Positions 1,752 to 49,304 of a DNA stretch of 64,000 bases are shown here, piece after piece (positions within the stretch are counted from its first letter, which is position 1; the number at the start of each line of letters is the position of its first letter). Both the position numbers and the translations under genes were made by a program. This DNA comes from Naegleria gruberi (taxonomy: Eukaryota), in assembly GCA_000004985.1 (NCBI GenBank), contig GG738910.1, one strand, 5' to 3'. Below the pieces are notes generated by a model that saw only the letters and a program-made list of their open reading frames with translations, did not search any database and was not told where the DNA came from.

Positions 1752-1773
1752 AGTTTTGTTTTATGTACAATTT

Positions 1774-2238
1774 TTACTCGATTTCACCAATAGCGTCTAT
1801 TGGATCCTTAGTATCATCATTATCAACTGCCTTATTATCTCCAAATTCTTCTTCAATGTTATCCAGTTCTTTTGGAACATCATCATTATTATTAGCAGCT
1901 GATTCATCCATTTTCTTCATTTCTTCAGCAATCAATTCGTTCAATTCCTCATCTTCTGCCTCTTTCTTTTCTGCTGACTGATTTAAATCAGTTTGAGGGT
2001 TTTCAACCATTTCCTCTAAAATATCGTTATTGTTTGTTGTTCCATTATTATCAGTTTGTTCTTGAGTGTTTTTTGGAACATCACCTGTTGTTGTATTAAG
2101 TTGTTCCGACGATATATCTTGGACAACTGTTGTTGATGTATTATTTACAGGTTCTACTGTATCTTTGTCCCTTGGCGATTCTGGTTGTTGGCTATTGGCG
2201 ACATCAGTGGCTTTAGTCGTTGAACAAGAACTTCCCAT
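1774..2238 (-). CDS. small acidic protein with N-terminal MGSSCS (N-myristoylation/palmitoylation consensus) and D/E-rich C-terminus
   Basis: 154-aa ORF with an ATG start; MGxxxS/T motif; no homolog recognised. Confidence 0.35.
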   Translation of the reverse strand: MGSSCSTTKATDVANSQQPESPRDKDTVEPVNNTSTTVVQDISSEQLNTTTGDVPKNTQEQTDNNGTTNNNDILEEMVENPQTDLNQSAEKKEAEDEELNELIAEEMKKMDESAANNNDDVPKELDNIEEEFGDNKAVDNDDTKDPIDAIGEIE

Positions 2239-17853: not shown

Positions 17854-18043
17854 TTTTTAATAATACATTTGAGAGATATGAGGCTGTTCCTAAAATAATT
17901 ACTATTTGATGAAAATAATCCACTAATATCAATTACTATCACTACAATATAATGTTGAGTTACATGATGTGTGTAAACCACCAAACTCCGAAATATAATC
18001 ACTAAGAATTACTAGTTGAAATTAGTATTTCATTTTGGCGCCT

Positions 18044-18052
18044 TACTAACCG
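18044..18052. promoter_or_regulatory. TTTGGCGCC E2F-like motif in divergent intergenic region
   Basis: Exact match to the E2F core TTTSGCGC. GGCGCC is otherwise almost absent from this AT-rich window. Confidence 0.3.
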
Positions 18053-18262
18053 TAAACTTTCAAGTTCGCCGCCATATGTAATTTCACCTTAAAAAAAATG
18101 AAAAAAGAAATCTCCCTTAGCACATTTTTTAAGTAAGTGCCTTGTTAAATTATTAAAAACTGAAAATGTTTAAGGGGAGAGAAGAAACGTAAAATAGATT
18201 GCGTTTCGGAAGAGTTTGAGGATGAAGAGGGAGTTTGGGTCCTGATATATGGAACATTTGGA

Positions 18263-22602: not shown

Positions 22603-24401
22603 TTAATGTTCACACAAGGAAAATTCTCTTTCATATTGTTCGTTTTTGTCATCTCTCTTATACTTTCTGTGATCCATGAGAATTTCACGAGTTTCATTTG
22701 CTTGTTCCTCAGTCATTTGTGGAATGAAGGGAATGACATTTTTCACAAGCACTGGATAGGTAATCTTTTGAGCTAACGAGAAGGAATTTGAAATAATGAC
22801 ATCTCTTCTCTGATTATCAATGTGACTTGTTGAGATAATTGGTGCATCTGGATCAACAAAGAAAAAGACAAGGATTTTTCTAGTTGCTGTCTTTTTTGGG
22901 TCTTCAGGGAAGAAATGTTTCACTCTGTGTTGATTTGTATTTGGGAAAATGATGCATTTACCTTCAGTTGTCTTGACCTTTCCAATTACTTCACATAATT
23001 TGTCTCCGTCATGAATCTGAATTTCCAATTAATTTCCAAAATAAAAAGTCAACTTACACCAAATCGTTCCCAAGCTTGCAAAACATTATCCTGTTCAATG
23101 TAATAAAAGTTTTCCTCACGTAACGATTGTCTAAATTCCAAGAAACTTTGCTTAATATTTTGACATTCATAATAGAAAATGCCAGTTGCCACAATATTCT
23201 CAGTATCTCCCTCAGTATGCCAAGTTCCTCCTGGATAGAAACCTTGTTCTGGAGTGACAATTACATTAGCTGCCTTGACAATTACTTGAACCTTATCCTT
23301 AATGTTAACAAAATTGTTGACAGGTTCAATAAAATGTGATAAGACTTCACAAATGGTATCTTGCAAATCCTTTTGAGTAATTGGATTAACATTGTTAATA
23401 TAAGATAGAGGAGTAACCTTATTATCACTATCCACTTTGAAATCAGTTGGTATCCATTGAGTTTCAGCAACTCCAACACGAACTTCACCTTTCTTTTCAT
23501 TCAAAACACTCAACTCTTTCGAATAGCAATACAAAGAAGGATGAATAATATCCAAAACTTGTTGATTTGAACCTGGATGCCAATCTAACTTGTCAACTGG
23601 AGTATTTTCCACAATTTCGTTCAATTGTTTCTTTAACCTTTCAGTCAAATCTGCAGGAATTAAATTTTCCTTTTCGAGACAAACATAGCTTGAAACACCT
23701 CTTTCATCAAATGCACAATGGGCACAGGGACACAAACAGAATTTTGTAGATCTTGGGTAATAACCTTCTTCTTCTTCTTCTTCGTCATCTTCAATTATTT
23801 CGTCATCATCTTCAATCACTTCGTCTTCATTTTCATTCATTTCGTCTTCATTGTCTTCATCTTCCTCATTTTCGTCTAGTTTCTTTTTAATTTTCTGGTC
23901 AGCATTACCTTCTGCTTTCTTTTTTTCCTCCTCTTGAACTTTCTTCTTTTTCTTTTCAGGTTCTTCTTCAGTACTTTCGAATAATGTTTCATTCTCATCA
24001 ATTGTCTTCTCCTCTCTATCACTCCAATTTTTAATTTTCTTTGGATTGGCATTGCAACAACCACAACAACGTTTCCTATAGGTAGAAATTTCAAGTAAAT
24101 CGTTCAAAATATCCATCGCTACGAGGAAACTACTTTCGGATATTCCTTGTGAAATAGTTTCCTTTCTCCATTTTGCAACAATGGTATTGAATATGATCTT
24201 TTCTTGCCAATTGTCCTTGTCTAGTATTTGGCGAACAATCTTTTCGGCATCTAGTGGATTGACCTGAACTCTTGGATGTCTGTGTGAAATAAATTCTTCT
24301 TCCTCTTGAGAAGATTCTTCAAATTCTTCTTCGTCTTCTTCGTTACCAGAGATTTGGCTGGTTGGCTCTTCTTCGGTATCGCTGAGTGATCGTTTCGACA
24401 T
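22603..24401 (-). CDS. two-exon gene: exon 1 24401..23058, 41-nt intron 23057..23017 (GTAAGT...TTCAG), exon 2 23016..22603; acidic E/D-rich N-terminal region with Cys clusters, C-terminal 2OG-Fe(II)-oxygenase-like/DUF4246-like region
   Basis: The GTAAGT donor directly follows ...WERFG. Splicing joins it in phase to IHDGDKLCEV...IIFPNTNQHRVKHF. Without splicing the protein ends at GVS*. Confidence 0.5.
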
Positions 24402-24479: not shown

Positions 24480-26732
24480 TTATTGGATAACACTCTCAGT
24501 CTTGTGTGTAACTGTTACTCCTGCCAACACTTTGGAAACAAATTGATTTTCAAATTCCTTCATTCCTAAATAATGGGTCTTGTAGGTTGGTGTTTGTTTC
24601 AATCGACTGAAAGCTTCAATTAGTTGGAAGGTTACTATACTGGTGAATTTCTTTTTCCATTCAAGATTGTTTGCGACAATTCCCTGATGTTGTGTTGGAG
24701 GAAATTTTGTGGATGATTCCTCAATGACTTGCTCAAGTTTTTTCAAATTAGTTTCAACACTTTCTTTCAATTTGAATGAAGTTGACCCTACATTAATAAT
24801 ATTTTGAATAACATAATATGAGAATGTATCTATCATTTCCTTTTCGGTAAAGCTATTGTTATTGTTAATAAAAAAGTATATTTCCAATAGTTCAGCCCTG
24901 AATTCGGCTGTTAAAAATCTTTTCATAATATCTACACATGGTATTTCATCAATAGTGTTGGCAAAGAACATTTCCATTTCTGATTTCAATTGTTTCAATC
25001 CTTCAAATTCAATTGCTGGTTGGTGATATTCATGCCAGTAGATGAAAAGTAAATAACCTGGCTCGAAACAAACTAGACATACTTCGAATATTGTTTTGGA
25101 AATACCGTACATTGCATATCCAACAATATGGGTGGCTAACATGTTGGAAACTGGTAAAAAGAACTTGGACATATAATTATTATTGATCCAACTAAGTAAA
25201 AAGTACAAAACTCCAGAAATAGCTGTAATAATTACAGTAAAAAATTCAGCATGATATTTAAAAGTATCATCATAAAGGAAATACCACTTGACAACTTGAA
25301 CAAAACTTCCCAATTGTTTGATAATAACTCTATTTGCCAACAAGTACAGAACTGTTGAGCCAAGACTGAGAATAATCATAACAGCAAAGGCTGCAACTGT
25401 TAAATAATCTAAAACGTCATTCTTAATACTAAAATCCTCAATGTCAGACGCCAGATAAATCACAATAATTTCAATTCCAATCACCAAAACAGAACAGATA
25501 ACGTAGGTGAATTTTGAGGATATAAATCTAAACCAAAAAGTTTCCTTCCTTTCAGATTCATAATATTTCTTATAAAACCATCTAGAAAGAAAGTATCTAA
25601 CTGTTTGTAGGGTGTACAGAGAAAATACCAGTATTAAAATGGCAGTCATTACAAGATTCATGTAATAATTGTCAGCTAGTGCCACTACAAAACCAAACCT
25701 CAAAGAACTGGCAATGAAGAATAGAATTGTGGAAAAGTACGGTGAGAAGAATCTCGATTGAATGTATCTATTCTTTCGAGCAATAATGAGCATTATGAGA
25801 AGACCTACACAAACAAGGGCTACAATAAGACATGATATACCCTTCCATATATTATACAGTGGTCTGGTTTGGAAATATGCAGAATCACAGTCCGATTCCC
25901 ATCCATGTGATTGAATCAATTTGAATGTTTGTGACATCTCAAATTGCTGTTCCTCTAGTATAAATGATCTTGAATAAGATTGATTGTTAGAATATTTTAC
26001 AAACTCCTGTAGTCCAATACTCCTCTTAAAAACTACTTGTACCATTGTTTCATTGTCCAAACCAGGTAGTAAGGTACTGTTGATTCTGAGATTGGTCATC
26101 AACTGGAGTGGAGTAAAGGTCAATTGTTCTTCCTCGTGTGTATACCTACTAGTGTTGGAACCAAATATAACATTCTCCAACTGAGACGGCTCACACTTTT
26201 CCCAATATGTCTCATTCTTAAATTTAACACACGTTGAATATGAATACCCTCCAAATGTATCATAATTTCTCGGCTCATACACAATATGATTACAGAAAAA
26301 GTAATAAGGAACATTAATAAACATTCCCTTTGGTGTGAATGAAGGAGATTTTGCTGCTCCCGATACTATAAACGAAAATCCTTGACAAATGAATATTCTA
26401 TCAATGGTTGATGAGTAAAGTCTGAAATCCATACTCGTCAAATTTGTTCCTGTTGTTGAATGGGACATGTCCCACTCTACTCTTACTTGACCATTCACCA
26501 TACAATTTCTATTGCCATCTCTAGCCTCCACTCCTACAATAAAACCCTTACTATTACCAATCAGCCCTCCAATTATTATTATATATATTAAATAACTAAA
26601 TATCCAATTATTATTATTATTATTACAATTATTATTCTGCTCAATATCATCATCACCATGCCTCTCATTATTATTATTTACTTCTATTCTACATTTAAAA
26701 TTCTTCTTATTATGATAAGTATGATAACACAT
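24480..26732 (-). CDS. multi-pass membrane receptor-like protein: signal-anchor, about 250-aa extracellular domain, 7 or more TM helices, C-terminal cytosolic domain (RGS-like, tentative)
   Basis: 750-aa ORF. Hydrophobic segment pattern after residue about 290. Poly-N N-terminus. Confidence 0.45.
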   Translation of the reverse strand: MCYHTYHNKKNFKCRIEVNNNNERHGDDDIEQNNNCNNNNNNWIFSYLIYIIIIGGLIGNSKGFIVGVEARDGNRNCMVNGQVRVEWDMSHSTTGTNLTSMDFRLYSSTIDRIFICQGFSFIVSGAAKSPSFTPKGMFINVPYYFFCNHIVYEPRNYDTFGGYSYSTCVKFKNETYWEKCEPSQLENVIFGSNTSRYTHEEEQLTFTPLQLMTNLRINSTLLPGLDNETMVQVVFKRSIGLQEFVKYSNNQSYSRSFILEEQQFEMSQTFKLIQSHGWESDCDSAYFQTRPLYNIWKGISCLIVALVCVGLLIMLIIARKNRYIQSRFFSPYFSTILFFIASSLRFGFVVALADNYYMNLVMTAILILVFSLYTLQTVRYFLSRWFYKKYYESERKETFWFRFISSKFTYVICSVLVIGIEIIVIYLASDIEDFSIKNDVLDYLTVAAFAVMIILSLGSTVLYLLANRVIIKQLGSFVQVVKWYFLYDDTFKYHAEFFTVIITAISGVLYFLLSWINNNYMSKFFLPVSNMLATHIVGYAMYGISKTIFEVCLVCFEPGYLLFIYWHEYHQPAIEFEGLKQLKSEMEMFFANTIDEIPCVDIMKRFLTAEFRAELLEIYFFINNNNSFTEKEMIDTFSYYVIQNIINVGSTSFKLKESVETNLKKLEQVIEESSTKFPPTQHQGIVANNLEWKKKFTSIVTFQLIEAFSRLKQTPTYKTHYLGMKEFENQFVSKVLAGVTVTHKTESVIQ

Positions 26733-26889
26733 GCTGAATATTATTATTCTTATTAATGATGACTATTCAGTGTTTCAAATAGAATGGTTGTTCATTCAGG
26801 ACTGTAGTGAGCGCTTTTTTGTTGTGCATGTTTTGGTGGTGAGGCTGTGGACTTTTTCGGTCTCCAGTGGTTTGTTTTTGTTGGTAATA

Positions 26890-26898
26890 TTTGGCGCC
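26890..26898. promoter_or_regulatory. TTTGGCGCC E2F-like motif
   Basis: One of four GGCGCC-core motifs within 1 kb upstream of the cyclin gene. Confidence 0.3.
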
Positions 26899-27299
26899 AC
26901 GAGTTGTTTTTCTGTGGTTGATCTTGACCAGTAGGGTTTGTTGTTGTTTGATTAGAGTTTCAATTTAGAAAATAGCTTTAAATTCATCACGGAATTGTTG
27001 AAGAGGAGGTTGAGCATTTTCTTTTGATGTTTGAATTTGATTGAATGAGACTATTGGCAGAAATCGATCAAGTTGAATTGACTACTTAACAAATGGAATC
27101 AACTTTAAAGATTTCCCTCCTAGTATAGCAATCTATTGGAGCGTGAAAGAGGCTGCTTCATTGTACCCATGTTCAAGCAATTAAGTTTCTTAATATTTCT
27201 CTGAACCATCCTCAAAACTCCTTAATTCTCCTGGATAGTGGAGTTTGATCAATCGTACAAGGATTACTCCCTTAATATAGCTCTGCATTTCCATCCCAA

Positions 27300-27334
27300 T
27301 TTGGCGCCAATAACAGTAAAAAAAATGGCGCCAA
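27300..27334. promoter_or_regulatory. two E2F-like motifs, palindromic TTTGGCGCCAA (27300-27310) and ATGGCGCCAA (27325-27334)
   Basis: Palindromic E2F consensus, paired 25 bp apart. Confidence 0.3.
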
Positions 27335-27857
27335 CAAGTAGAGTTCCATTAACTCTTCAGACAAAAACTTTCGAGTTACCATCATACAATGATTGTATCA
27401 ATATTATTCCAGAAAGTCTACTACAATGTTCTTTTAAGTGTTTGTATTAAATCTCAACAACCATCAAAAAGTCTCAACATTTTTCCTTTCTCACCAATTC
27501 AATGAAGAGATTTTCCCAAATATTCAAAATAGAAAAAATCTATTAATAATCTTATTGTTTAGAATTGTTTCCAACACGTCACATAACATGACCATTTGTG
27601 ACATTTTTAATGTTTGATTGCTTTGTAAACTTTCAAGAATCCATTAATAGTGAGACAGAGATGAAAATATTCAATATCAACAACGTTACTAACAAAGCCA
27701 TTGCTTTATCCCACTTTCCAATGGCTCACCACCACAACAATATTATGAACAACTCTCTCAGGCACAATACCGTATTTCAGCTGTACTTCCCACCAAAATC
27801 ATCATCGCTACAAGGATGCCTTCAATTTGATAATGTGTGTTCTACTTCTCATCTAAT

Positions 27858-27867
27858 AAGGCGCCAC
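27858..27867. promoter_or_regulatory. AAGGCGCCAC E2F-like motif about 165 bp upstream of the cyclin ATG
   Basis: GGCGCC core. Confidence 0.25.
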
Positions 27868-28023
27868 TGGAACCTGCTAATGTGTAGCCAACGATTCGAG
27901 TACGTGTTGACAAACGTGGCTGAGTGCGAAGTTGTTTCTGAAAGGAGAAGGGGATCGCAACAACTTTGCTGTTGGTCATCATTTAAAAAAAAAATTGCCG
28001 TACAATTTTATCCGCAAAGTACA

Positions 28024-29108
28024 ATGGCAAGACAACAACGAACCAATTCTTCGAAACAGGGAGGACGCAGAAGAAGATATTCCAATGATGGGGACTCGAG
28101 AGAGGAATATAGCAGCACTACAACAACAACAAATAATGGTGTTGCTCATACTAATAACACTACTTCAGTTGCTGCTGCTGTGAGTTCTCAAGCTTATTCT
28201 TCTAAAAAGTCTGAAGATTGTAAGGGAACTTCTCCTGCAAGAGATGTTGGCGTTGTTCAAAATAACAATTCCACTATTAATAATAATAACAATAATACTA
28301 CCACCACTACTTCCCAATCATCATCAATTCCTTCCTCTACAACAAATTCTTCAACCACCTCCACTACTTCTAAAGATGAAGTTATCCCAGCTAAACTCTC
28401 CCAAGAAAATTCATATTTTGGATTAAACCAAGATGAATTCATCAATGCCTTCTCTTCTGTAATTCAAGAAATTTCATCACAAGGAGACATGATCCCTATT
28501 GAAGCCCAACAAAAAACACAATTCCACACCTCTCTTCCACCAAGAATATCACTTCGTAAATATTTGGACAGAATTATCAAGTTTGCTTTCTGTTCTGCTG
28601 AATGTTATATTCTCAGGTATGTTGTTTCAACGAAATTCATAATTATTCATCATCTTTCTACAGTCTTGTATATATGGATAGGTTGGTACAATCGAATCCT
28701 AATTTTGTGATTAGCAGCTTGTCTATTCATCGTTTACTCATCACCAGTATTATGGTTGCTGCCAAGTTCTTTGATGACAAGTTCTATAGCAATGAATACT
28801 ATGCCAATATTGGTGGTATCAAGAAGGAGGAAATTAATAAGTTGGAGATTGAATTTCTCTACATGATTAACTTTTCTCTCCACTTCCAACCACCTGAATT
28901 TGAGCAGTATAAGGAAGAGTTTATTGTTGCTCCAGCCCTCAGAGAGAGAGCTCTCAAGAAACGAACAACAGCTGTTGGTTCTTCTAAACAGTACTCTGTG
29001 GGACAATCACATCATAGTTATGGTGATGAAGTGAGCATTGAGGAATCATGTATATCCATATGTTCAGAACAACAACAATATCCACGACATTCGTCTCCCA
29101 TCCATTAA
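28024..29108 (+). CDS. PHO80-like / U-type (P-type) cyclin, two exons: 28024..28616 and 28664..29108 (47-nt intron GTATGT...CTACAG)
   Basis: The spliced protein reads ...RKYLDRIIKFAFCSAECYILSLVYMDRLVQSNPNFVISSLSIHRLLITSIMVAAKFFDDKFYSNEYYANIGGIKKEEINKLEIEFLYMINFSL, matching the cyclin-U/PHO80 core block. The start ATG at 28024 was chosen as the first Met of the conserved part; the ORF extends further upstream. Confidence 0.75.
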
Positions 29109-30094: not shown

Positions 30095-31170
30095 ATGTTG
30101 CATAACCTTGCAATAAAAACAGATGGTTCTGGAATTTATTCAAGTACTAGGATTGATAACCATCTGTAACAGGAGAACAAGCCACGGTTGGCCAACCATT
30201 TGTGTCACCTTTCGCAAGCTTCGTATCGTTCAATAAATCGTAGAGTGTATAACTCAACGATGGCGACAAGGGAAAACTGAGCTTAATATAGGCATTCAGT
30301 TTTGGTGTTCATCCTTATGTGGAATATACAATCAGACATTTGGTGGTTTTCGAACATTTTTTAATTGCCAAATTCCAAAATGGATACATTTCACGTATTT
30401 GTTAATGTATTATACAGTTACTGACTTATAACCAACTTTATAAGGTCGGTTTTTGGACAGGGAGAAGTCTCCATAATCAAGCCAATTGGAGACATTTAAG
30501 GAAGCAGGAACTGGACAGTGAGATTCTTATCACACCTTGATCTGGCATTGAGTTTTTAAAATTGAGGAACATATCCCAATGTCGTAGATATGAATGACAT
30601 CGCCTTGTCTATTATTGTCAAGGTATTAAGGGTGAAAATAACCTCACTGTAAACATAATGGCACTGATAGATGAATTAATGTTGTGCTATTTGGCTTTTC
30701 TCTAACATGGACTACACAATCACTGTACCATCACCAATTAAATCACTAGATCCTTAATGGACTACCTTAATGCTGAGTTGGAGTCATTGAATATTCTTCA
30801 ATTGATAGCGAATATTCATTCAATTGAAGAAAACACATCGAAAAAAACTCTCAACATAATCCCATCAAGCGAACGTTGGTTGTACACGACTCTTTCCTTA
30901 ATATAACCCTCAAGCGTGAAAAGAACACATTACTGGCATTCCATTAACAGCTTTAATCAAATCTGGCCATCCCCCTTCGTACATATTTTGCACAACACCA
31001 CACAGACACAACTGCTTCCTAGCCACAACACAACAAAAAAAACAACAATAACCTAGCTTAATAGAGAATCTTCCTTATTATCCAAACACAAACACATACA
31101 GCTTGATCAATTGAAAAGCGACAAACAGTGTTTAATTACCTCCCTGTATCATTTCCTTACCACAGAATAC

Positions 31171-34100
31171 ATGTTTCCTATCAGACAATTCAATCAACAA
31201 GGGTTGATGAATAGCAATGCTGCTTCCTTTTCCAGTTCAACTACTACCCCAGGTGGCGCTTCTGGAAGTGAATGGACAGGTCGTCCACAAGAGCAAGAAA
31301 TCTTCAATGCCATTTATAATTGCAGCAGCAAGAGCTTGCCTGGATCTCCTTCTCTTGATACCTTCCTTGATAGTGCTCAATTGCAACAATTGGACAACTT
31401 GGCTCGTTGTGAAAAGCAATTCTGTAGAGGAACAACTCCAAGTAATGAAAGCATTGCAGCTCAATGGCTCAATGACTTCTCGAACGTTGGTGAACACCGT
31501 CTCACTCACTTTATCCAATCTCACAGCAACTTGGTTGTATACTTGCCTGATTATCCATATCCTGTGTTTGTATTCAATCTTGGTTATTTGAATAACATTT
31601 GCCAACAAGTGAGCGTCCTGGAGAGTAGAAGAATGTTATCATTGGCTCTTCCACATCTAGAGATTGGAACCTTGCTGAATAGTGAAGTGGTTGTAACCGA
31701 TTTACCATTTGCCAACTCAGCCACCTATCCAACCCTCTACTTGGACATTCCATTGCCAAGCAGTTACAATGGACACTTTAAAAAGTATGTCCCTTCCCCT
31801 GAGACCTTACCTACATTGAAGACCTTGAGAGAGAGCTATGCCTTCCAAAGATCAGTTCCACTCACTCTCGACATTGAACGTGCCTTCAAGTTAGCTCAAG
31901 CAGTTCCATACTTTTTTGGCTCAAAGAGATCGAACCTTGCTACTCAAGTGTTGAGAGAGTGCTACTCTATTGAACCTCACTCAATCTATGTCTATTGTAT
32001 GATCTATATATGCCTCTTTGGTTATACCTTCCAACCTAATGGTAAGGAGGTTAGTGCACTCGACCTGATCATTAGACAAGCACTCTTTGAATGCTCGACC
32101 ATTGATGCCATTGTATTGTTGAGAGCTTCCATAAAACTCTTGGAATTCCCTGAGGGAGCCAAAGGCAATTGGGTCAAGGTCTCTGCAAGAGAATTCAATG
32201 CAGTCAAGATGAAAATCCTTGAATATATTGATGACAAATTCACAAGAATGTTTTACAAATTATTCAATAGTCCAGAAAGTGATTTGTTGAACTATACTGG
32301 CTTCTTACTCATCGCCAACTTGATCAGATCATCAAGATTGGTAGTTGACGATGAGAATCAAGTATTAAGAGCTCTCAGACAATATCTCATTATCAATGCT
32401 GATGTCATTATTGCTGAAAAGTCAAAAATGACAGTTCCTGAGCACATGGCTGAAAGAATTCAACAAATACCAGTCACTCGTGAAATTTACAGCCAAAAAA
32501 AGCAAATACCAAAGAAGCAAATTGAAGTTTTCCAAGAAAGATATGGAAGAATCTTCTTTAGAATTTCCAGATATTCTCAACTTGTTGAAGATGCCATTTG
32601 TTACATGATTGCTGGCATTAGATGGCATTCATTTGGTGATAATGCCTTATCCATGTTGCAATATCTCTATGAAGACTTGAATCACGTTGGTGTTATTACT
32701 GAATTTAGTTTTGATACTTTCTGTTACATGGTCGAATCTCACAGAGATCCAACAACCATGTTGAATAGAACCATTAAGCAAGTTAGTAATGGAAAGGGTG
32801 GTAACAGAAATATCTCTCAAAATATGTTGACTTTCAAGTCAACTGCTGGCAATGGTGTCATGTATCCAAGAGAAATCATGTTGAGCTATAATTGCTTTGA
32901 CAACCGTCATTATTTCCAAACTTTCCACTTGAGTTCTGTTGGTAAGGGTGTTAGATTGAATGATTTGTCCAATTATGCTAGTTATCATGCTCTTAGAATG
33001 AAAGAAAATCGTGTCATTAACAGATTCTTAACCTTTGACATGAAGATTTTCCAATCTTTTATTAGAGATGTTGATGCTATTCAAACCAACAAGTTTGACA
33101 GAATCCTCATCAAGGCACATAATTCCCATGATGAATCCCTTGCCACCTCCTACAATCTCATTACTCGCCATAACAACTTGTTAGCCAACTGTGAAAACAA
33201 GTACAGAAATGGTTATGTCCACGACTGTGTCATGCCTTACAACTTCAACCACTTGATCCAAATACTCAAGAAACAAGTCTTTGCCATGCAACATCCTCAA
33301 TTCATTAACAAGTTGAATAAGGACATTGAAATTGCTGAAAGAAAAGCCAAAAGACTTGCAAGACAACAAGCAAGAAGAGGAAGCATTGCAAGCTCCTCTT
33401 CAAGCACCGAGAGTAATCATCACAATTTCAATGGTGTTGGAATGGATTTCCAAGGACAAGGACACGTTGAAATTGCCTCTTTAAGTGTTGCAGTTGCTCC
33501 CACTCCAAATATCTTGCCAATGATGGCAAATGTATTTAATTGCAGCAATAATCAAACAAGTAGAATACTTGCAGCTCACAACAGAACCATGATGATGAGT
33601 CAATCCAATCAAGGATGTTCCAGCAGTGGTTACAATACTCCATCAGTCACTAATCAAAATTCCAAACAAGGAACCAAACGTACGAGAGAAAGCAAGGAAT
33701 TCCAATTTGTCTTTGAAGATGGAATCAACTCAAACAGAGCAGGTCGTGCTAAGAAGAAGAAGGAATCTATTCAAGGTCAAAATCTTACACTCGAACAACA
33801 AATCAGAGAAAATGCAGACCTATTGAGCTTGAGTGGCGCCAGTAATATTGAAAGAACAGTTGAATTAAATGTTCAACAAGCTCCTCCTTCAAATTTCCAA
33901 ATTCCAACAACCACATTCAGACCAAAGCATTTTGTAAACTTTTTGGTATATAAGGCTGCTGACGAATTCCATTGTAGCTCACCAAATGTTGGACCATCAG
34001 AAGTCGTCTTGGATGAAATCAACTTGCCACTCTACATTTGTCGTCCTTCACACATTAGTCCATCCAGATTTTTAGAAATGATGGATATTAGTTCTATTCT

Positions 34101-34605
34101 AAAGGTCAGCATGAGACAATTCTGTGACATTTTGAATGGTGATGAGGTTCTTGTTGGATTCAAAGATAGTATTAAGGTCCGTGGTGTTCCACAACGTGAT
34201 TTGAATGATCCAACTCTCCATTTCATAGACGAAACTCAAAGAGATCCAGAAGACATTGATTGGGAATCTTTCAATGTCGATGCTTTCTGTGATAGAGTTG
34301 CTGAAGAAGAAATGAAAAAGCAACAACAAAATCAAGAAGTTTACATGCAACAAGTTATGATGAAACAATTCGAAATGATGCATCAACAACCTGCTAACAT
34401 GTTGGAAGATGAAGGATCAGTTTTTGATTTGTTGATTTCAAGTCCACTTGGAGCAAACATGATGCATCAAAATTCAATGATATCTGGCAACGTGGAAGAA
34501 ATGTTTAATAGCTTCCTGGATCCAATTGTTGAAGAAATGAATGAATTGGAAGAAGCTGGTCAATGTGATCTCTTCAAATATGATGAATTTCAACCTCATC
34601 CATAA
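31171..34605 (+). CDS. large (about 1145 aa) hypothetical protein; no domain recognised; Q/N/M-rich C-terminus
   Basis: The ORF track begins at an alternative TTG (31111). The first ATG is at 31171. Confidence 0.5.
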   Translation: MFPIRQFNQQGLMNSNAASFSSSTTTPGGASGSEWTGRPQEQEIFNAIYNCSSKSLPGSPSLDTFLDSAQLQQLDNLARCEKQFCRGTTPSNESIAAQWLNDFSNVGEHRLTHFIQSHSNLVVYLPDYPYPVFVFNLGYLNNICQQVSVLESRRMLSLALPHLEIGTLLNSEVVVTDLPFANSATYPTLYLDIPLPSSYNGHFKKYVPSPETLPTLKTLRESYAFQRSVPLTLDIERAFKLAQAVPYFFGSKRSNLATQVLRECYSIEPHSIYVYCMIYICLFGYTFQPNGKEVSALDLIIRQALFECSTIDAIVLLRASIKLLEFPEGAKGNWVKVSAREFNAVKMKILEYIDDKFTRMFYKLFNSPESDLLNYTGFLLIANLIRSSRLVVDDENQVLRALRQYLIINADVIIAEKSKMTVPEHMAERIQQIPVTREIYSQKKQIPKKQIEVFQERYGRIFFRISRYSQLVEDAICYMIAGIRWHSFGDNALSMLQYLYEDLNHVGVITEFSFDTFCYMVESHRDPTTMLNRTIKQVSNGKGGNRNISQNMLTFKSTAGNGVMYPREIMLSYNCFDNRHYFQTFHLSSVGKGVRLNDLSNYASYHALRMKENRVINRFLTFDMKIFQSFIRDVDAIQTNKFDRILIKAHNSHDESLATSYNLITRHNNLLANCENKYRNGYVHDCVMPYNFNHLIQILKKQVFAMQHPQFINKLNKDIEIAERKAKRLARQQARRGSIASSSSSTESNHHNFNGVGMDFQGQGHVEIASLSVAVAPTPNILPMMANVFNCSNNQTSRILAAHNRTMMMSQSNQGCSSSGYNTPSVTNQNSKQGTKRTRESKEFQFVFEDGINSNRAGRAKKKKESIQGQNLTLEQQIRENADLLSLSGASNIERTVELNVQQAPPSNFQIPTTTFRPKHFVNFLVYKAADEFHCSSPNVGPSEVVLDEINLPLYICRPSHISPSRFLEMMDISSILKVSMRQFCDILNGDEVLVGFKDSIKVRGVPQRDLNDPTLHFIDETQRDPEDIDWESFNVDAFCDRVAEEEMKKQQQNQEVYMQQVMMKQFEMMHQQPANMLEDEGSVFDLLISSPLGANMMHQNSMISGNVEEMFNSFLDPIVEEMNELEEAGQCDLFKYDEFQPHP

Positions 34606-37884: not shown

Positions 37885-40320
37885 ATGAGTCAACAACAAT
37901 TCGTTGGGAATGGAAGCCCGCCAAATATTTCAACTACTTCTATGAATGCTGCTGCTACTAATACTACTACTGGTAATGTTGTGGTTGGTACCTCAACAAC
38001 ACCATCAACAAACACTGGGAATGTGGGAGGGATATCGAATGGTGCTGGAACAGCTTCCCTTAAAACCTCACCGAATGATCTGTTGCTGAATTTACGTAAA
38101 TACACGAACAAATTGTTGGAGATTAATGGAACAAATCAAGTGGTTTCTGTTCCTTCGAACGTTGGTGTTGGAAAAGAGGTTGCACAGCCTCTTGCTTCTC
38201 TCTCCACTCCGACACTGAACCTTAATCAAAATATTGAGGAGAATAGAAATAATCAACAAATTGAAGAGGAAAGAGTGGAACCACAACAAGTATTCAAAAT
38301 TCCTCAACAGCAAACAAGTAGACCAGCAAGTCCAAAAAGGAGTGAAAGTTTGGTGATAATGGATGACCAAATTTCGGATATTGAAAGTGTTACTGATAAT
38401 GACCAGAGTAATACTAGCAAAACAGTTGTAAATTATAGAGATTTAGAAGTGAAAAAGTGTTATGATATTATTTTCAAGCTAAGAAATAGGCTTGCTAAGG
38501 AAAAGGAAAAGAATGATCAACAGGAAAGAAGAAAGGAAGATTCCACAAAGATGCTAGGAAAGTTAATTGATCATTATAAATCGGAAAACTCTAGATTGAT
38601 TCAACAATTAGATTTACTGAGAAGAGATTCTGATGCACAAATTGAGGAACAGTTACATCAGATGAATGATTTGAGGATTTCAAACTTTACTCTATCAGAA
38701 GAAATTAACATTCTAAGAAATTCAGTGAACATTGAGAAACAAAAAGGAGATCAAGATATTGAGAGACACATTAGAGAAAAGTCAAAAACACAATCAGAGT
38801 TAATTGAATGTAAAAGGGAAAATTCCAAACTTAGAGAAACAATAATGGTGCTGGAAGAAAATATTAAAAAGGCAGAACTCAACGCAGCAGAATCTGTGAA
38901 AAATTTTGAGGAAATTGAAATACCATCATTGAAAAGAAAGTGTGGGTATTACGAAAAGACAATCTCTGATTTGGAAAAGAAACTAGATGAGATTCGGAAA
39001 GATCAAGAACGGTCTGTGAATCAACATGTGGAGAGATTTAAATCAAAAGAAGCAGTCATGGGAGAAACCATCAAGCGATTGGAAGAAGATTTGAAAAAGC
39101 AACGAGAATCAATGAAGCAAAACTCCAATTCAAGTTCAGAGGAGAAGAAGCAACTTGAAATTCAATTGAAAGAACAAGTTAATTTGAATGATGAAACAAG
39201 ATTAGAATTGGCTAATTTAAAGTCTTCTCTAGAGGATATAGAAGTTAACATGTTGAATCACCTCATTCAAGAACATGAAGAATTAATTATTGAAGTTTCT
39301 CAAATGGATGCTTTTATGACTGAGGTATTTTCAGTAAAATCAAGAAAGGAAATTAAGAGATTGGTGACTGAAAATTTGGAACTCAAGAATCAATTGAGTT
39401 TGATGAATGAACAATACGAGATTAACAAAAAGCAACTCCAACACGCAACTCTTGAATTGGATGAACTAAAATCTTCCTTCAATAAGGGTGATCAAGTGTT
39501 GAGTCAATTAGAGAACCAAAGAAAGACTCAATCTGAGAGACATAGAATAGAATTGGAAGAATTGAGAACAGAAATGAGAAATTTTACAATTTCACAAAAA
39601 GCAGAAAAAGAGAACTTGTTAGATTTGTTGGACAATACCAAAACTCAACTGGATACTTGCCAACATAAAATGGAGCAAATGCAACTGGAAAGAAGTGATG
39701 GCCAAAAAGAGGTTCAATACCTCAGAAAAAGAAACTCTGAGCTTGAAACTCAACTTCTCAACGCAGAATCAGATAGACAAAGATTGGTTTCAGAAGTTTC
39801 CAATCTTAATTGTACATTAGATCAATTGAGAGATGAAGTCGATGCCAAGAACGATGAAAATAGAAAGATTGTAGAGCAATCAAGATCTTCCATGCAATCT
39901 ATTCAAGTCAAACTCAACAGAGACCAACAAATCTATCAGAAGAGTGAATATGATTGGAATCAAAAAGTGAAACATCTGAATGATATGGTACTTCAAGCGG
40001 AGTACAATCTTTCGGAATATAAAAAGAAGTACAAGGAAGAAATTAGCAGCTTTAATAATGATTTAATTATGAGGCAACAACAAATTGAAAGTTTACAAAC
40101 CGATGTCCAAAGAATGAAACAGGAAGGCATGTCTATTACAGCTCAAAACAAGAAAGACTTGGATGTGAGAGAACAGGAAATTCAAAAGATCAAGAGAGAA
40201 AAACAACAATTAGAGCATTCAATTGTTCAAAAAGAAAGAGAGAAAGACTCATTCAAACTGAGATTGGAAATGATGGAAAGAGAATTATCAAGACTGAAAT
40301 CTCAATATAATGTAAAGTAA
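37885..40320 (+). CDS. long coiled-coil protein (E/K/Q/L heptad-rich, S/T/N-rich head)
   Basis: 811 aa. About 650 aa of uninterrupted heptad-like charged sequence. Confidence 0.55.
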   Translation: MSQQQFVGNGSPPNISTTSMNAAATNTTTGNVVVGTSTTPSTNTGNVGGISNGAGTASLKTSPNDLLLNLRKYTNKLLEINGTNQVVSVPSNVGVGKEVAQPLASLSTPTLNLNQNIEENRNNQQIEEERVEPQQVFKIPQQQTSRPASPKRSESLVIMDDQISDIESVTDNDQSNTSKTVVNYRDLEVKKCYDIIFKLRNRLAKEKEKNDQQERRKEDSTKMLGKLIDHYKSENSRLIQQLDLLRRDSDAQIEEQLHQMNDLRISNFTLSEEINILRNSVNIEKQKGDQDIERHIREKSKTQSELIECKRENSKLRETIMVLEENIKKAELNAAESVKNFEEIEIPSLKRKCGYYEKTISDLEKKLDEIRKDQERSVNQHVERFKSKEAVMGETIKRLEEDLKKQRESMKQNSNSSSEEKKQLEIQLKEQVNLNDETRLELANLKSSLEDIEVNMLNHLIQEHEELIIEVSQMDAFMTEVFSVKSRKEIKRLVTENLELKNQLSLMNEQYEINKKQLQHATLELDELKSSFNKGDQVLSQLENQRKTQSERHRIELEELRTEMRNFTISQKAEKENLLDLLDNTKTQLDTCQHKMEQMQLERSDGQKEVQYLRKRNSELETQLLNAESDRQRLVSEVSNLNCTLDQLRDEVDAKNDENRKIVEQSRSSMQSIQVKLNRDQQIYQKSEYDWNQKVKHLNDMVLQAEYNLSEYKKKYKEEISSFNNDLIMRQQQIESLQTDVQRMKQEGMSITAQNKKDLDVREQEIQKIKREKQQLEHSIVQKEREKDSFKLRLEMMERELSRLKSQYNVK

Positions 40321-43117: not shown

Positions 43118-43819
43118 TCTGATGATGATTTATTTCTTGTGTTTGATGAAGATGAATCAGCAACAACAGAGAAGGGTTGGAAATTTTTTTTAAAAGTGCT
43201 GTTGAAAACTTGTTGCGATCAAAAGCTTCGAAGGAGAAAGCTGCAACCTTTATCAATCCGCTTATTGTGGACGCGACTTTTAAGCTTCATTCGGAAAAGC
43301 AAAAGACGCGAATTTTTTATCAAGGTGGAAGAGAACAGATCAAGTCACAATAATTCATGGTACTTTGATTCTCATCATGAATTGAATTTAACCCAATTCA
43401 TCATGATATGTAAAGAAATTGTGTTGTGGTAGTAAAAGAAATTTGTTTTTGAATTTTTTGTAATACTTCGGTCAGTTCTTGTATCGGAGAAATTTTCCAT
43501 TGTGTTTTAATAAATGAACGAGAAGAAGATGATGACGATTGGTGCATAGTTGTTGGTGAAAGTTAACAAATATTGTTGTAATAATTGGCTGTAGTTGTTG
43601 ATAGTTAAATTTGTTGTGGAGGTTTCATCAACTACTTCAACTGAAAGGCATACCAAATGTGATTTTTCAGATTGATGCATTAAGAAGCTTCATTAGATGA
43701 AGAAGGAGAACAAGTTTACAATGGACAATTTACTTCATAATTATTTGATGACAATTTTCTATGCAATGATGAACATTAAATGGGAAAGCAAATGAAAGAA
43801 GGGATAAGAACTGAAAAAA

Positions 43820-44735
43820 ATGGCGGCAAGTCAAGAGAATTGTATTAGGAATTGTCGGACGAAAGGTTCATCATCATCTTCAGTGTGGATTAGTTTTCAT
43901 CAGGTCATCCTTTCATGTTTTTTAATTTTAGTGATGAGTAATTGTTGTTGTATTAATTTTACAAGAGCAGCAACAACACTAGTATCCATTCCGAAATGTA
44001 GTAATGCAACTGGAGGTGAAATTATTGTGGACGATATTAGTGAGTGTGTACAGTATGATCCGAATACACCTCTTGTTCCTTGTTTATTAGTGTATGTGCA
44101 ATTATTTAGAATTTAGTTTTGAATCATTACATTGAATTAATTTATTATTACTGAAAATTAAATAATTTAAATGTTGGATATTGATGATTTTGTGGAAATA
44201 TTACAGTCCTAATGAATTTAGAGTTTGTGATTTTCCATTGACATCTCCAAGTGCAAGTATTCCAACTTGTGCCTATGAAGAATTTATTGCACAGAATGGA
44301 GCTTTTCAAAATAATACCAAGTATGGATATGCTAATTGTACTGTTCTCGCTAGTATTGAATGTGTGGGACCAAGATCATGGCATCAACTATTTCCATGTA
44401 AAACGTATGTTATTTTGCTTTGAACAATATTCGAATGTTGGACAATTTACATTTTCATATTTTAATTAATAGTATTTATTCAAATTTCCAATTTGTGACA
44501 GCTTTGGTATTGTCTGTATTTGCTGGAATTTTTGGAGCTGATCGTTTCTATTTACAGCATATTGTTTTAGGGTGAGTTTTTACAATCTAATAGAATTTGT
44601 GTGGAATAACTTTATAGTGTTATTAAATTATTGACACTTGGAGGGGTTGGAGTTTGGTGGATTGTCGATATAGGTCTCCTAGTTGCAGGTATCATTGTTC
44701 CAGCCGATGGTAGTAGTTGGCAACAATATTATTAA
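43820..44735 (+). CDS. TM2 domain-containing protein, four exons: 43820..44091, 44207..44404, 44473..44571, 44618..44735
   Basis: Signal peptide and Cys-rich ectodomain. The spliced protein reads ...FVTALVLSVFAGIFGADRFYLQHIVLGVIKLLTLGGVGVWWIVDIGLLVAGIIVPADGSSWQQYY, which is the TM2-domain signature. Introns are 115, 68 and 46 nt (GTATGT/GTATGT/GTGAGT donors), all restoring phase. Confidence 0.75.
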
Positions 44736-47403: not shown

Positions 47404-48747
47404 TTACAAAGTTGGACGTCCCATAAAAGTCATCCAAGAATTAATGACATCTATGCTTGTTAAATCTGCTCTATTCATTAAACCGGCTAGTTCTGGATGT
47501 TGATTAAGAGCCTCTTCACTCTGATTTTGACATTCATTAATCTCCTGAATGAATGCCTTCTTGAAAGGTTCGGGTTTTTTGAGTTTATGACTCAAAGGAA
47601 ATACAGTTTCTTTCAATGTTTTCCACATTGTATAGGCATCCTCAGGAGAGTAGGTGGATTTGGAAAGTTTGAAATGATTATGAGATAGCGCCTCCTTATC
47701 CTCACTCCATTGAATATAATTATCAGACCCTTTCCAGTTGGATAGTATTTCACAAATTTGACTTTTTAATCCACCATTCCTCAATTGTTCTACTTCTTTG
47801 TGAACACGTTCACAAAGTGCTCTGAATAATAAATTCCAAGAAGAGGATTCATGTATAGAATTCAAAATAGAGACCATATCTGCTGCTGAATAACTAAACC
47901 TTATTGAATTCAGCATCTCATTACAAGCACTGAAAATAACTGCATCACATTCGAATATCGTTGCTATTTGGGCTACCTTATAAAAATGTATGAGTGATTG
48001 CTCTGGGCATCTATTGGTGTACATTAAATCTAAAAAACTCTTTACATGTGCTTCAGTAATAGATAATGAACTTCCAAGCACAATTTGATTCTTTTTTGGA
48101 CTCTTATCGAAATACTTTTTGAAATAGTTACAAAAAATTGAAAGAAACATTTTGTGAGCTGGCAATGAGCCTTCCTTCCCAGTTGAAGTATCTTTAAATT
48201 TGATTGTAATATCAAAATCCTTCTTTTTCTTGTACAATTCCTCAAAATGTTTGAAGAGTGATGAATTTCTTTCCTTCTTTGAAAATTCTGCTGTTTTAGT
48301 GCTAAATACATACGCTACATTATCAAACACAGGTTTCTTGTGGGTAAAATCAAAAAACAGTGGTCCATTATATGGAGTAATGATTGCATGTCCAGGATCA
48401 GATATTTCATCAAGAATCTCTGCTGCATTCGCCTTACTATAGGCTGAAACCAATGAAAAATCACCATTTGGCCATCTGCAAACATATAAAGAAACTGGTT
48501 TTCCAATCGAATCATCTCCAAAACCTTCTTCATCTTCATCTCCAAACTCATCAGCATCATCTTCATCTTCGGAATCAATATCAAAATCTTCTTCATCTTC
48601 CTCTGCTATTTTTCTTTTCTTAGCCTCTTGTTCTTCATTATTTGTTTTTGTTACTTGTTGTGGTTGATCATCTTCATCTTCGTCATCACTCGATAAAACG
48701 AGCGTTTCTTGTTTTTGGGAAATAACAGGTTTTCTCTTTGGCGCCAT
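47404..48747 (-). CDS. BTB/POZ domain-containing protein with acidic N-terminus
   Basis: 447 aa. BTB-like block ITIKFKDTSTGKEGSLPAHKMFLSIFCNYFKKYF...SFLDLMYT. The start codon is embedded in TTTGGCGCCAT. Confidence 0.5.
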   Translation of the reverse strand: MAPKRKPVISQKQETLVLSSDDEDEDDQPQQVTKTNNEEQEAKKRKIAEEDEEDFDIDSEDEDDADEFGDEDEEGFGDDSIGKPVSLYVCRWPNGDFSLVSAYSKANAAEILDEISDPGHAIITPYNGPLFFDFTHKKPVFDNVAYVFSTKTAEFSKKERNSSLFKHFEELYKKKKDFDITIKFKDTSTGKEGSLPAHKMFLSIFCNYFKKYFDKSPKKNQIVLGSSLSITEAHVKSFLDLMYTNRCPEQSLIHFYKVAQIATIFECDAVIFSACNEMLNSIRFSYSAADMVSILNSIHESSSWNLLFRALCERVHKEVEQLRNGGLKSQICEILSNWKGSDNYIQWSEDKEALSHNHFKLSKSTYSPEDAYTMWKTLKETVFPLSHKLKKPEPFKKAFIQEINECQNQSEEALNQHPELAGLMNRADLTSIDVINSWMTFMGRPTL

Positions 48748-49304
48748 TTTTTTGTTGTGTTTGTTTTAAAAAGTGTTGGCGGCAAAAAAAGGCTGTTGAT
48801 TCAATTATGGTTATTTTCTAAGCTTGAAACAGTTCGAGTGTGTGCTGGATTATACTAGAATGCACAGACAGACATGGTTGAAGAATGAATTCATCAAATA
48901 TTGTGCTCGCTTTAATTTTGACCAATTAAAGATTAAGGATAATGCCCGAATTATCCAATAGAAACAGCTCAAAATGACCATAAATAATATGAAATTGTTG
49001 GGTTGTGTCCATTCTATTGATTTTCTATTATCACAAAATGATCATTGAGTAATATTATTATAAAAACAACATAAATTGTTGCCTCACTTTCTACCAGCAA
49101 CAAATATTGAGAATCAAACACATTGCTTATTTTGGCCAAGTTGAACAAATTGAGGTAGTACGCACACTAACCTTTCATAAATCACTTTGAAAAACAACAA
49201 CAAGAATCAATTCCATCGCATCACATCAAGATTTTCAAAATTGTTCCCTACAAAATCAATATTGAGAGTGGTGAAATTCCAAGTTAAAAAACAACAAGTA
49301 ATTC

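What the first reader, a model, noticed from the sequence alone, without database searches (positions are those of the whole stretch)
26735..28023. Cluster of E2F-like TTTGGCGCC motifs upstream of a PHO80/U-type cyclin gene
GGCGCC is almost absent from this window; every occurrence was listed, and only one is inside a coding exon. Four copies with the E2F core (TTTSGCGC) lie within 1 kb upstream of the cyclin: 26890, a palindromic TTTGGCGCCAA at 27300 paired with ATGGCGCCAA at 27325, and 27858. More copies sit in the divergent intergenic region at 18044 and overlap the start codon of the BTB gene at 48737. E2F control of a cyclin would be biologically coherent.
Basis: partly seen in the sequence, partly recalled or inferred. 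Interest (0 to 1): 0.5.

Follow-up and report, generated by a model that had tools for sequence, protein, structure and literature searches.

The report
E2F-type sites in Naegleria promoter
A 1.3-kb gap between two head-to-head genes of the amoeba Naegleria gruberi holds four copies of a rare palindrome (TGGCGCCA) that matches the binding site of the cell-cycle transcription factor E2F/DP; the sites are real and probably regulatory, but it is not shown that they control the cyclin gene.

Summary
GGCGCC occurs 7 times in 64 kb against 0.49 expected. Four copies lie within 970 bp (26893, 27303, 27327, 27860).

The window is Naegleria gruberi NEG-M. The downstream gene is a PHO80-like cyclin (NAEGRDRAFT_53232).

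The motif is TGGCGCCA with A/T flanks. This is the E2F/DP palindrome known from human SELEX and from Cryptosporidium promoters. N. gruberi encodes one E2F, one DP, one DEL and one RB. Their recognition helices are almost identical to those in the E2F4-DP2-DNA crystal.

The wider family WTGGCGSS gives 12 matches against 1.2 expected. All of them lie in or at the edge of five of the seven head-to-head intergenic regions of the window. In a near-identical strain, the only GGCGCC on a 4.3-kb contig sits 252 bp upstream of a CDK1/2-type kinase gene.

- Only two of the four clustered sites match TTTSGCGC.
- Site 26893 lies nearer the opposite gene.
- Site 27860 may lie in an open in-frame upstream extension of the cyclin.
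- PHO80-type cyclins are not classical E2F targets.
- The cyclin loci of N. lovaniensis, N. fowleri and Willaertia carry no GGCGCC.

Verdict: probable E2F/DP sites in a bidirectional promoter, a new member of a known kind. Function and target gene are inferred.

The parts
26888..26901 (.). Site 1: taTTTGGCGCCAcg. TGGCGCCA palindrome, 10 of 12 matches to TTTSGCGCSAAA. It lies 161 bp upstream of the ATG of the minus-strand membrane-protein gene and 1,131 bp upstream of the cyclin ATG.
27298..27311 (.). Site 2: aaTTTGGCGCCAAT. 10-bp palindrome TTGGCGCCAA, 11 of 12 matches to TTTGGCGCCAAA. It is the first base block shared with the strain contig L004, so it marks the synteny boundary. It is conserved in L004.
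27319..27335 (.). Site 3: AAAAAAATGGCGCCAAC, 24 bp from site 2. The 16-mer AAAAAAATGGCGCCAA is identical to the minus-strand sequence at 48753-48738. In L004 the core is mutated to GGCGTC.
27855..27868 (.). Site 4: aaTAAGGCGCCACT. The weakest E2F match (8 of 12) and not TTTSGCGC. It lies 164 bp upstream of the annotated cyclin ATG, inside the stop-free in-frame upstream stretch, where it reads AGG CGC CAC. It is conserved in L004.
26733..28023 (.). 1,291-bp head-to-head intergenic region (bidirectional promoter). It has no tRNA and no Rfam hit. Apart from the stop-free in-frame stretch 27592-28023, which lacks coding-like codon usage, stops occur in all six frames.
28024..29108 (+). PHO80-like cyclin gene NAEGRDRAFT_53232. 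CDS 28024-28616 plus 28664-29108, with a 47-nt intron.
27592..28023 (+). 144 stop-free codons in frame with the cyclin ATG. The frame stays open in strain L004 despite indels with net lengths +18, -24 and -6. This is a possible N-terminal extension (first ATG at 27607) or a translated leader.
24480..26732 (-). Divergent neighbour: 750-aa multi-pass membrane protein NAEGRDRAFT_74079, with no Pfam family.
18033..18076 (.). Second locus: TTTTGGCGCC (18033-18042) plus GGCGGC on the minus strand (18068-18073). It lies in a 409-bp head-to-head intergenic region, 184 and 226 bp from the two ATGs.
48737..48793 (.). Third locus: TTTGGCGCCATTTTTTT overlapping the BTB-gene ATG (48747-48745, minus strand), plus TTGGCGGCAAAAAAA at 48776-48790. 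It is a head-to-head region with a guanylate-cyclase-like gene.
43813..43830 (+). AAAAAAATGGCGGCAAGT: a GGCGGC variant that contains the likely start codon of a multi-exon TM2-domain gene. It lies in the head-to-head region next to aconitase.
37915..37925 (-). TTTGGCGGG, the classical E2F variant, on the minus strand. It lies 32 bp inside ORF 37885-40320 and 198 bp upstream of the divergent gene's ATG (37719).
33834..33841 (.). TGGCGCCA deep inside the 1,164-aa ORF 31111-34605. It is probably coding only.

Best explanation
The four GGCGCC palindromes are a cluster of like binding sites for the Naegleria gruberi E2F-DP heterodimer. They lie in the bidirectional promoter between the membrane-protein gene NAEGRDRAFT_74079 and the PHO80-like cyclin gene NAEGRDRAFT_53232.

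Proposed mechanism (inferred): E2F-DP binds T-GGCGCC-A through its conserved RRxYD recognition helices. RB then represses or releases these promoters according to proliferative state.

Likely layout:
- The tandem pair at 27303/27327 is the distal edge of the cyclin's regulatory block.
- Site 26893 is the proximal site of the opposite gene.
- The status of 27860 is uncertain. It could be a proximal promoter site, or part of an in-frame leader or N-terminal extension.

Shown: the over-representation, the clustering, the confinement to head-to-head promoters, the match to the E2F motif, the presence of the factors, and one hit upstream of a cell-cycle CDK gene. Inferred: the binding, the target gene, and cell-cycle regulation.
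For: Over-representation:
- GGCGCC 7 against 0.49 expected.
- TGGCGCCA 5 against 0.10.
- WTGGCGSS 12 against 1.22, with 0 of 100 shuffles reaching it.
- Four of 7 sites within 970 bp, P about 4e-4.

Position:
- All noncoding loci are head-to-head intergenic regions. These make up 8% of the window. P about 2e-4 for at least 4 of 5 loci, and 0.0075 within noncoding DNA.
- Proximal sites sit 161-226 bp from start codons.

Motif form:
- T precedes GGC in 14 of 16 half-sites, giving TGGCGCCA with A/T flanks.
- This equals the E2F motif of C. parvum (PMC3734150) and the human E2F1 SELEX site TTTGGCGCCAAA (PMC5449588).

Factors:
- N. gruberi has E2F, DP, DEL and RB.
- The E2F DNA-binding domain matches 1CF7_A at E 7e-25, with [24 protein letters not shown] identical. 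DP matches 1CF7_B at E 8e-28.

Other strain (contigs L007 and L004, N. gruberi-like):
- On L007 the single GGCGCC in 4,333 bp is TTTTGGCGCCATTTTTT, 252 bp upstream of the CDKAc start codon.
- On L004, sites 27303 and 27860 are conserved and stay linked to the cyclin although the upstream neighbour is a different gene.
Against: - There is no binding or expression evidence.
- None of the genes flanking the sites in the window is a classical S-phase gene.
- About 86 kb of N. lovaniensis, N. fowleri, Willaertia and a related contig was examined. This includes the orthologous cyclin loci and the N. fowleri CDKAa locus. It holds only one GGCGCC, inside a retroelement ORF, and none lies upstream of the orthologues.
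- Site 27327 is mutated in L004.
- Outside the cluster the enrichment of GGCGCC itself is modest, 3 sites in 63 kb.
- Three sites share the species' normal start-codon context AAAAAATGGCG. Two of these are real start codons.
- The CDKAc hit alone has a chance probability of roughly 0.1.
Confidence: 0.55

Rival explanations
1. The palindromes are functional promoter elements, but they are bound by another factor, possibly specific to N. gruberi. Alternatively they act structurally, for example as a boundary or an unmethylated CpG element. In either case they would be unrelated to E2F or the cell cycle.
For: - The enrichment is seen only in N. gruberi-lineage DNA and not in about 86 kb from sister species.
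- The flanking genes have no cell-cycle theme.
- The genome is CpG-depleted (observed/expected 0.43). Head-to-head regions are somewhat richer in CpG (0.62).
Against: - The motif, including its flanks, is the textbook E2F palindrome.
- The E2F and DP recognition helices are conserved.
- One site is upstream of a CDK1/2-type gene.
- No other known family with this site was identified.
Confidence: 0.2
2. Some or all sites are not transcription-factor sites. They would be by-products of the preferred translation-start context AAAAAATGGCG (current or former start codons or uORFs), or of coding sequence (27860, 33835). The cluster would then be a local historical accident.
For: - 48740 and 43822 contain real start codons with the typical A-run.
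- ATG-GCG occurs at 3 of 23 starts although GCG is 3.5% of Ala codons.
- 27325 and the L007 site (minus strand) have the same AAAAAATGGCGCC form.
- 27860 lies in a 144-codon open frame that is kept open in L004.
Against: - The ATGs at 27325 and on L007 open only 41- and 6-codon ORFs. The 27325 ORF is not conserved in L004.
- Sites 18037, 26893, 27303 and 27860 have no ATG.
- The start context does not explain the CC that completes the palindrome.
- It also does not explain 7 observed against 0.49 expected.
Confidence: 0.15
3. The palindromes mark a recombination or rearrangement hotspot, or the end of a mobile segment.
For: - Homology between the window and strain contig L004 ends exactly at 27298, next to the palindrome.
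- The next 110 bp are 81% identical, against 99.6% elsewhere, and include a micro-inversion of about 45 bp.
Against: - The flanks of the seven sites share nothing beyond about 12 nt.
- There are no terminal repeats and no second copy of the intergenic region in the window.
- L004 is a metagenome assembly, so a chimeric join cannot be excluded.
- The other loci show no sign of rearrangement.
Confidence: 0.07

Closest known systems
E2F/DP binding sites (TTTSGCGCSAAA), for example the palindromic DHFR and E2F1 promoter sites of mammals and the human E2F1 HT-SELEX site TTTGGCGCCAAA
   Same: - Same 6-bp symmetric GC core with T- and A-rich flanks.
- 5 of 8 N. gruberi-lineage sites match at least 10 of 12 positions.
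- Sites occur in pairs (24-38 bp apart) and close to gene starts.
- The cognate E2F, DP and RB proteins are encoded, with conserved recognition helices.
   Different: - The flanking genes are not classical G1/S genes.
- The cyclin is PHO80-like, not of the E or A type.
- There is no evidence of binding or cell-cycle expression.
- The sites are not conserved at orthologous promoters in sister species.
The E2F motif 5'-TGGCGCCA-3' of Cryptosporidium parvum upstream regions (PMC3734150)
   Same: - The identical 8-mer is over-represented in the short intergenic regions of an AT-rich protist.
- It is found upstream of many functional classes and not only replication genes.
   Different: - In C. parvum the finding rests on genome-wide expression clusters covering more than 2,000 genes. 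Here it rests on one 64-kb window plus two strain contigs.
- C. parvum lacks RB, whereas N. gruberi has it.
Plant E2F sites TTTCCCGCC and TTTGGCGGG
   Same: One perfect TTTGGCGGG (37917, minus strand) and three GGCGGC variants accompany the GGCGCC sites at head-to-head promoters.
   Different: In N. gruberi the fully palindromic GGCGCC form dominates, 7 of 11 sites.

Membership tests
E2F/DP cis-element | Sequence matches TTTSGCGC(S), or the palindrome TTTSGCGCSAAA | tested here: met
   Sites 18034, 26890, 27300 and 48737 match TTTSGCGC exactly. Site 27300 matches TTTGGCGCCAAA at 11 of 12 positions. Sites 27325 and 27858 match only the core plus one flank.
E2F/DP cis-element | The organism encodes E2F and DP with the conserved RRxYD DNA-contact helices | tested here: met
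   NgruE2F and NgruDP sequences come from the PMC4862756 supplement. Both are exact entries in NCBI N. gruberi. They match 1CF7 chains A and B at E 7e-25 and 8e-28, with identical RRIYD and RRVYD helices.
E2F/DP cis-element | Over-represented and positioned in promoters near gene starts | tested here: met
   GGCGCC 7 against 0.49 expected. WTGGCGSS 12 against 1.22 expected. All noncoding loci are in head-to-head regions, 161-226 bp from ATGs or overlapping them. This rests on one window only.
E2F/DP cis-element | Present upstream of canonical cell-cycle or DNA-replication genes of the same organism | tested here: inconclusive
   - Positive: one case, CDKAc on strain contig L007, site at -252.
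- Negative: N. fowleri CDKAa.
- Too little sequence: only 204 bp upstream of CTP synthase is present on L007.
E2F/DP cis-element | Occupied by E2F/DP in vivo or bound in vitro, with an RB-dependent effect on transcription | not testable with these tools
   No ChIP, DAP-seq or expression data for N. gruberi were found.
E2F/DP cis-element | Conserved at orthologous promoters | tested here: not met
   There is no GGCGCC or TTTSSCGC upstream of the cyclin orthologues in N. lovaniensis (L001), N. fowleri (L002), Willaertia (L003) or L005. Within N. gruberi strains, 2 of 3 comparable sites are conserved. Conservation is supportive rather than strictly defining.
PHO80-like (P/U-type) cyclin (the flanking gene) | Pfam PF08613 cyclin domain above the gathering score | tested here: met
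   PF08613 E 6e-36, 124.5 bits against a cut-off of 21. Homologues are named cyclin-U4 and cyclin-P3.

The most novel reading that the evidence does not exclude
In Naegleria gruberi the RB-E2F/DP module has a regulon marked by the palindrome TGGCGCCA. That regulon would include a PHO80-like cyclin and a CDK1/2-type kinase. P-type cyclins would then fill the E2F-controlled G1/S cyclin role in this Discoba lineage, as PHO80-like CYC2 does in trypanosomes (from my own knowledge). The regulon would have been rewired recently, because sister Naegleria species lack the sites.
Probability: 0.15. Interest if true: 0.55.

Novelty: new member of a known kind. Interest (0 to 1): 0.3.

Why it matters
No cis-regulatory element has been described for Naegleria. 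The text searches found none.

If TGGCGCCA is the working E2F/DP site, it gives a first handle on transcriptional control in a heterolobosean. [quoted passage not shown] The motif would define candidate RB-E2F targets genome-wide. It would also let one ask whether P-type cyclins are wired into that circuit.

The finding itself, E2F-like motifs in a promoter, is an expected kind of feature and not a surprise.

Tried and rejected
**Hidden genes or RNAs in the 1.29-kb region**
- I found no tRNA and no Rfam family. The only Rfam hits were snoRNA matches at E>1.
- Six-frame translation shows stops in every frame except the in-frame stretch 27592-28023. That stretch has no Pfam hit.

**Repeat, mobile-element or tRNA-primer-site origin**
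- The sites share no more than 12 nt. There are no terminal repeats and no other copy in the window.

**Phylogenetic footprinting**
- The N. gruberi promoter cannot be aligned with those of N. lovaniensis or N. fowleri.
- Those two share ACGTCA-type blocks with each other instead.

**Fetching canonical E2F targets of N. gruberi**
- The NCBI N. gruberi genome is not indexed for contig look-up.
- A chimeric E2F+RB+cyclin A query was swamped by low-complexity words.
- N. fowleri RB is not on record.
- An E2F-core search gave no Naegleria orthologue with DNA. The hit I followed (L006) was an unrelated organism with 65% GC.

**Expression data**
- The gene IDs appear in no searchable paper.
- The two Naegleria differentiation papers are not held.

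**ATG 27325 as an upstream first exon of the cyclin**
- Rejected. The ORF and the candidate splice donor are not conserved in L004.

Full report
**Identity of the window.** The spliced cyclin model (28024-28616 plus 28664-29108, 47-nt intron) is identical to the NCBI Naegleria gruberi protein XP_002670931, apart from a 12-residue difference in the gene model. Eight further ORFs are exact N. gruberi NEG-M proteins from one 243,952-bp scaffold. The window has 35% G+C, and its CpG observed/expected ratio is 0.43. The cyclin is PHO80-like (PF08613, E 6e-36).

**The observation.**
- GGCGCC occurs 7 times, at 18037, 26893, 27303, 27327, 27860, 33835 and 48740. The expectation is 0.49, and none of 100 dinucleotide-preserving shuffles reached 7.
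- It is the commonest all-G/C hexamer, 7 copies against at most 2 for any other.
- The 8-mer palindrome TGGCGCCA occurs 5 times against 0.10 expected.
- Seven of the nine places holding the pentamer GGCGC are these hexamers.
- Four sites within 970 bp has P about 4e-4.

- Only 26890 and 27300 match TTTSGCGC. Site 27325 is AATGGCGC and 27858 is TAAGGCGC.
- Site 26890 is 161 bp from the ATG of the divergent 750-aa membrane-protein gene and 1,134 bp from the cyclin ATG.

**What lies in the 1,291-bp gap.** There is no tRNA, no Rfam family, and no repeat beyond the 12-nt motif itself. Stops occur in every frame except the in-frame stretch 27592-28023, described below. The annotated genes on either side are consecutive in UniProt order (D2VYD3, D2VYD4), so no gene is annotated between them.

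**The motif family.**
- Aligning the seven window sites and one from a strain contig gives T at the position before GGC in 14 of 16 half-sites, with A/T-rich flanks. The element is therefore TGGCGCCA.
GGCGGC occurs at 18068, 43822 and 48778, and a perfect TTTGGCGGG at 37917.
- The half-site pattern WTGGCGSS gives 12 matches at 9 places against 1.22 expected.
- All nine places lie in, or within 32 bp of, five of the seven head-to-head intergenic regions of the window. None lies in the roughly 26 tandem or convergent gaps.
- Head-to-head regions make up 8% of the window. P is about 2e-4 for at least 4 of 5 independent loci, and 0.0075 if only noncoding DNA is considered.
- Sites tend to come in pairs: 27303/27327 at 24 bp, 18037/18068 at 31 bp, and 48740/48778 at 38 bp.
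- They lie 161-226 bp from start codons or directly on them.

**Match to E2F.**
- TGGCGCCA is the sequence reported as the 'E2F' motif, the most over-represented upstream motif of Cryptosporidium parvum (PMC3734150).
- TTTGGCGCCAAA is the human E2F1 HT-SELEX site (PMC5449588). Site 27300 matches it at 11 of 12 positions.
- N. gruberi encodes one E2F, one DP, one DEL (E2F7/8-like) and one RB (supplement of PMC4862756). The E2F and DP sequences are exact NCBI entries.
- The E2F DNA-binding domain aligns to chain A of the E2F4-DP2-DNA crystal 1CF7 at E 7e-25, with [24 protein letters not shown] identical. DP aligns to chain B at E 8e-28, with NIRRRVYDALNVLMA conserved.
- The same DNA specificity is therefore expected. 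This is inferred.

**Test on a cell-cycle gene.** The N. gruberi genome could not be fetched. An ENA metagenome holds a strain about 99.6% identical to it. Its 4,333-bp contig L007 carries CDKAc, a PSTSIRE CDK1/2-type kinase. The only GGCGCC on that contig is gaTTTTGGCGCCATTTTTTag, 252 bp upstream of the start codon. Given the site density in noncoding DNA, the chance probability is roughly 0.1. The hit is supportive but not decisive.

**Strain comparison at the cyclin locus.**
- Contig L004 is collinear with the window from 27298 onwards.
- To the left of ATTTGGCGCC, L004 has the 3' end of a kinase gene that is absent from the window.
- Sites 27303 and 27860 are conserved. Site 27327 is GGCGTC in L004.
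- The segment 27338-27412 is only 81% identical and includes a micro-inversion of about 45 bp.
- The three right-hand sites therefore travel with the cyclin gene, and the pair marks the edge of the shared block. L004 is a metagenome assembly, so a chimeric join cannot be excluded.

**Evidence against a conserved E2F-cyclin link.**
- The cyclin orthologue loci of N. lovaniensis (21 kb), N. fowleri (5.8 kb), Willaertia magna (21 kb) and a related contig (6.9 kb) contain no GGCGCC. None has TTTSSCGC upstream of the cyclin.
- The promoters cannot be aligned with that of N. gruberi. N. lovaniensis and N. fowleri share other blocks, such as GACACGTCAA.
- The N. fowleri CDKAa locus has no site upstream. 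Its single GGCGCC lies in a retroelement ORF.
- The enrichment is therefore seen only in the N. gruberi lineage, in this small sample.
- The genes next to the sites are not classical S-phase genes. They encode an NHL-repeat protein, a kinase-linked ORF, a BTB protein, a guanylate-cyclase-like protein, a TM2-domain protein, aconitase, and two proteins without a Pfam family: the membrane protein NAEGRDRAFT_74079 and the 811-aa product of ORF 37885-40320.
- No expression data were reachable.

**Complications.**
1. The normal start context of N. gruberi is AAAAAATG. ATG-GCG occurs at 3 of 23 starts although GCG is 3.5% of Ala codons. The sites at 48740 and 43822 contain real start codons. Site 27325 and the L007 site have the same AAAAAATGGCGCC form but open only 41- and 6-codon ORFs. 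A start-codon origin can explain a minority of sites at most.
2. The 144 codons upstream of the cyclin ATG are stop-free and in frame. Other genes in the window have 1-33 such codons, and the cyclin orthologues have 7-29.
   - In L004 the frame stays open although the two sequences differ by indels of +2, +17 and -1 (net +18), of -24, and of -4 and -2 (net -6).
   - The codon-usage score is intermediate: above 95% of noncoding windows and below 5% of coding windows.
   - If the CDS starts at 27607, site 27860 is coding (R-R-H). The 27303/27327 pair would then lie 304 and 280 bp upstream, similar to the CDKAc site.

**Conclusion.** The cluster is real and non-random. It is most likely a set of E2F/DP binding sites in a bidirectional promoter (confidence about 0.55). 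This is a new organism for a known kind of element. Whether the sites regulate the PHO80-like cyclin, the opposite gene or both is not established, nor is cell-cycle dependence.

**Rivals, with confidence:**
- Another factor or a structural role: 0.2.
- Start-codon or coding by-products plus local accident: 0.15.
- A rearrangement hotspot: 0.07.

Noticed in passing
window 27592-28023 (and L004 879-1298): There are 144 stop-free codons directly upstream of, and in frame with, the annotated cyclin ATG. A 99.6%-identical strain keeps the frame open through compensating indels (net +18, -24, -6). The codon usage is neither clearly coding nor clearly noncoding. This could be an unannotated N-terminal extension starting at ATG 27607.
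   Followed up: partly
window 27298 and 27338-27412, compared with L004 562-680: Homology with strain contig L004 stops exactly at 27298. In L004 a kinase gene lies upstream of that point. The next 110 bp or so are only 81% identical and include a micro-inversion of about 45 bp around the palindrome ATACAATGATTGTAT.
   Followed up: partly
window 43820-44735 (+): A multi-exon TM2-domain gene does not appear among the long ORFs. Its likely start is AAAAAAATGGCGGCA at 43820. Pfam TM2 matches ORFs 44420-44575 and 44631-44735 at E 6e-9.
   Followed up: partly
start codons across the window: The start context is strongly A-rich, and about half of 23 starts have AAAAAATG. Ala-GCG is the second codon at 3 of 23 starts, although GCG is the rarest Ala codon (17 of 484).
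   Followed up: partly
whole window: CpG is strongly depleted (observed/expected 0.43) and TpA moderately (0.62). CpG observed/expected is higher in head-to-head intergenic regions (0.62) than in other noncoding DNA (0.47).
   Followed up: no
L001 9013-10000 and L002 3407-4474: The roughly 1-kb upstream regions of the N. lovaniensis and N. fowleri cyclin orthologues share conserved blocks: GTTTGTTTTCTTT, GAAAACTGTAA, CTATTTAAATCTCT, CATTGACACGTCAA and ACGTTTTCG. N. gruberi has a similar AACACGTCAC at 27574. These suggest a bZIP/CRE-like element and not an E2F site.
   Followed up: no
window 18-2238 compared with L001 and L002: Gene order differs between species. In N. lovaniensis and N. fowleri the tepsin-VHS-like gene and a small minus-strand gene lie directly upstream of the cyclin. 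In N. gruberi they are 26 kb away, with about a dozen genes in between.
   Followed up: no
window 22603-24401 (-): Two adjacent minus-strand ORFs (22603-23028 and 23049-24401) carry the C- and N-terminal parts of DUF4246 and are separated by 20 bp. They are probably one gene with a very short intron or a frameshift.
   Followed up: no
L009 3624-6678: The N. fowleri CDKAa locus in the NCBI assembly carries a non-LTR retroelement (Exo_endo_phos_2, RVT_1 and RNase_H ORFs). The element is absent from the ENA assembly of the same locus (L008).
   Followed up: no
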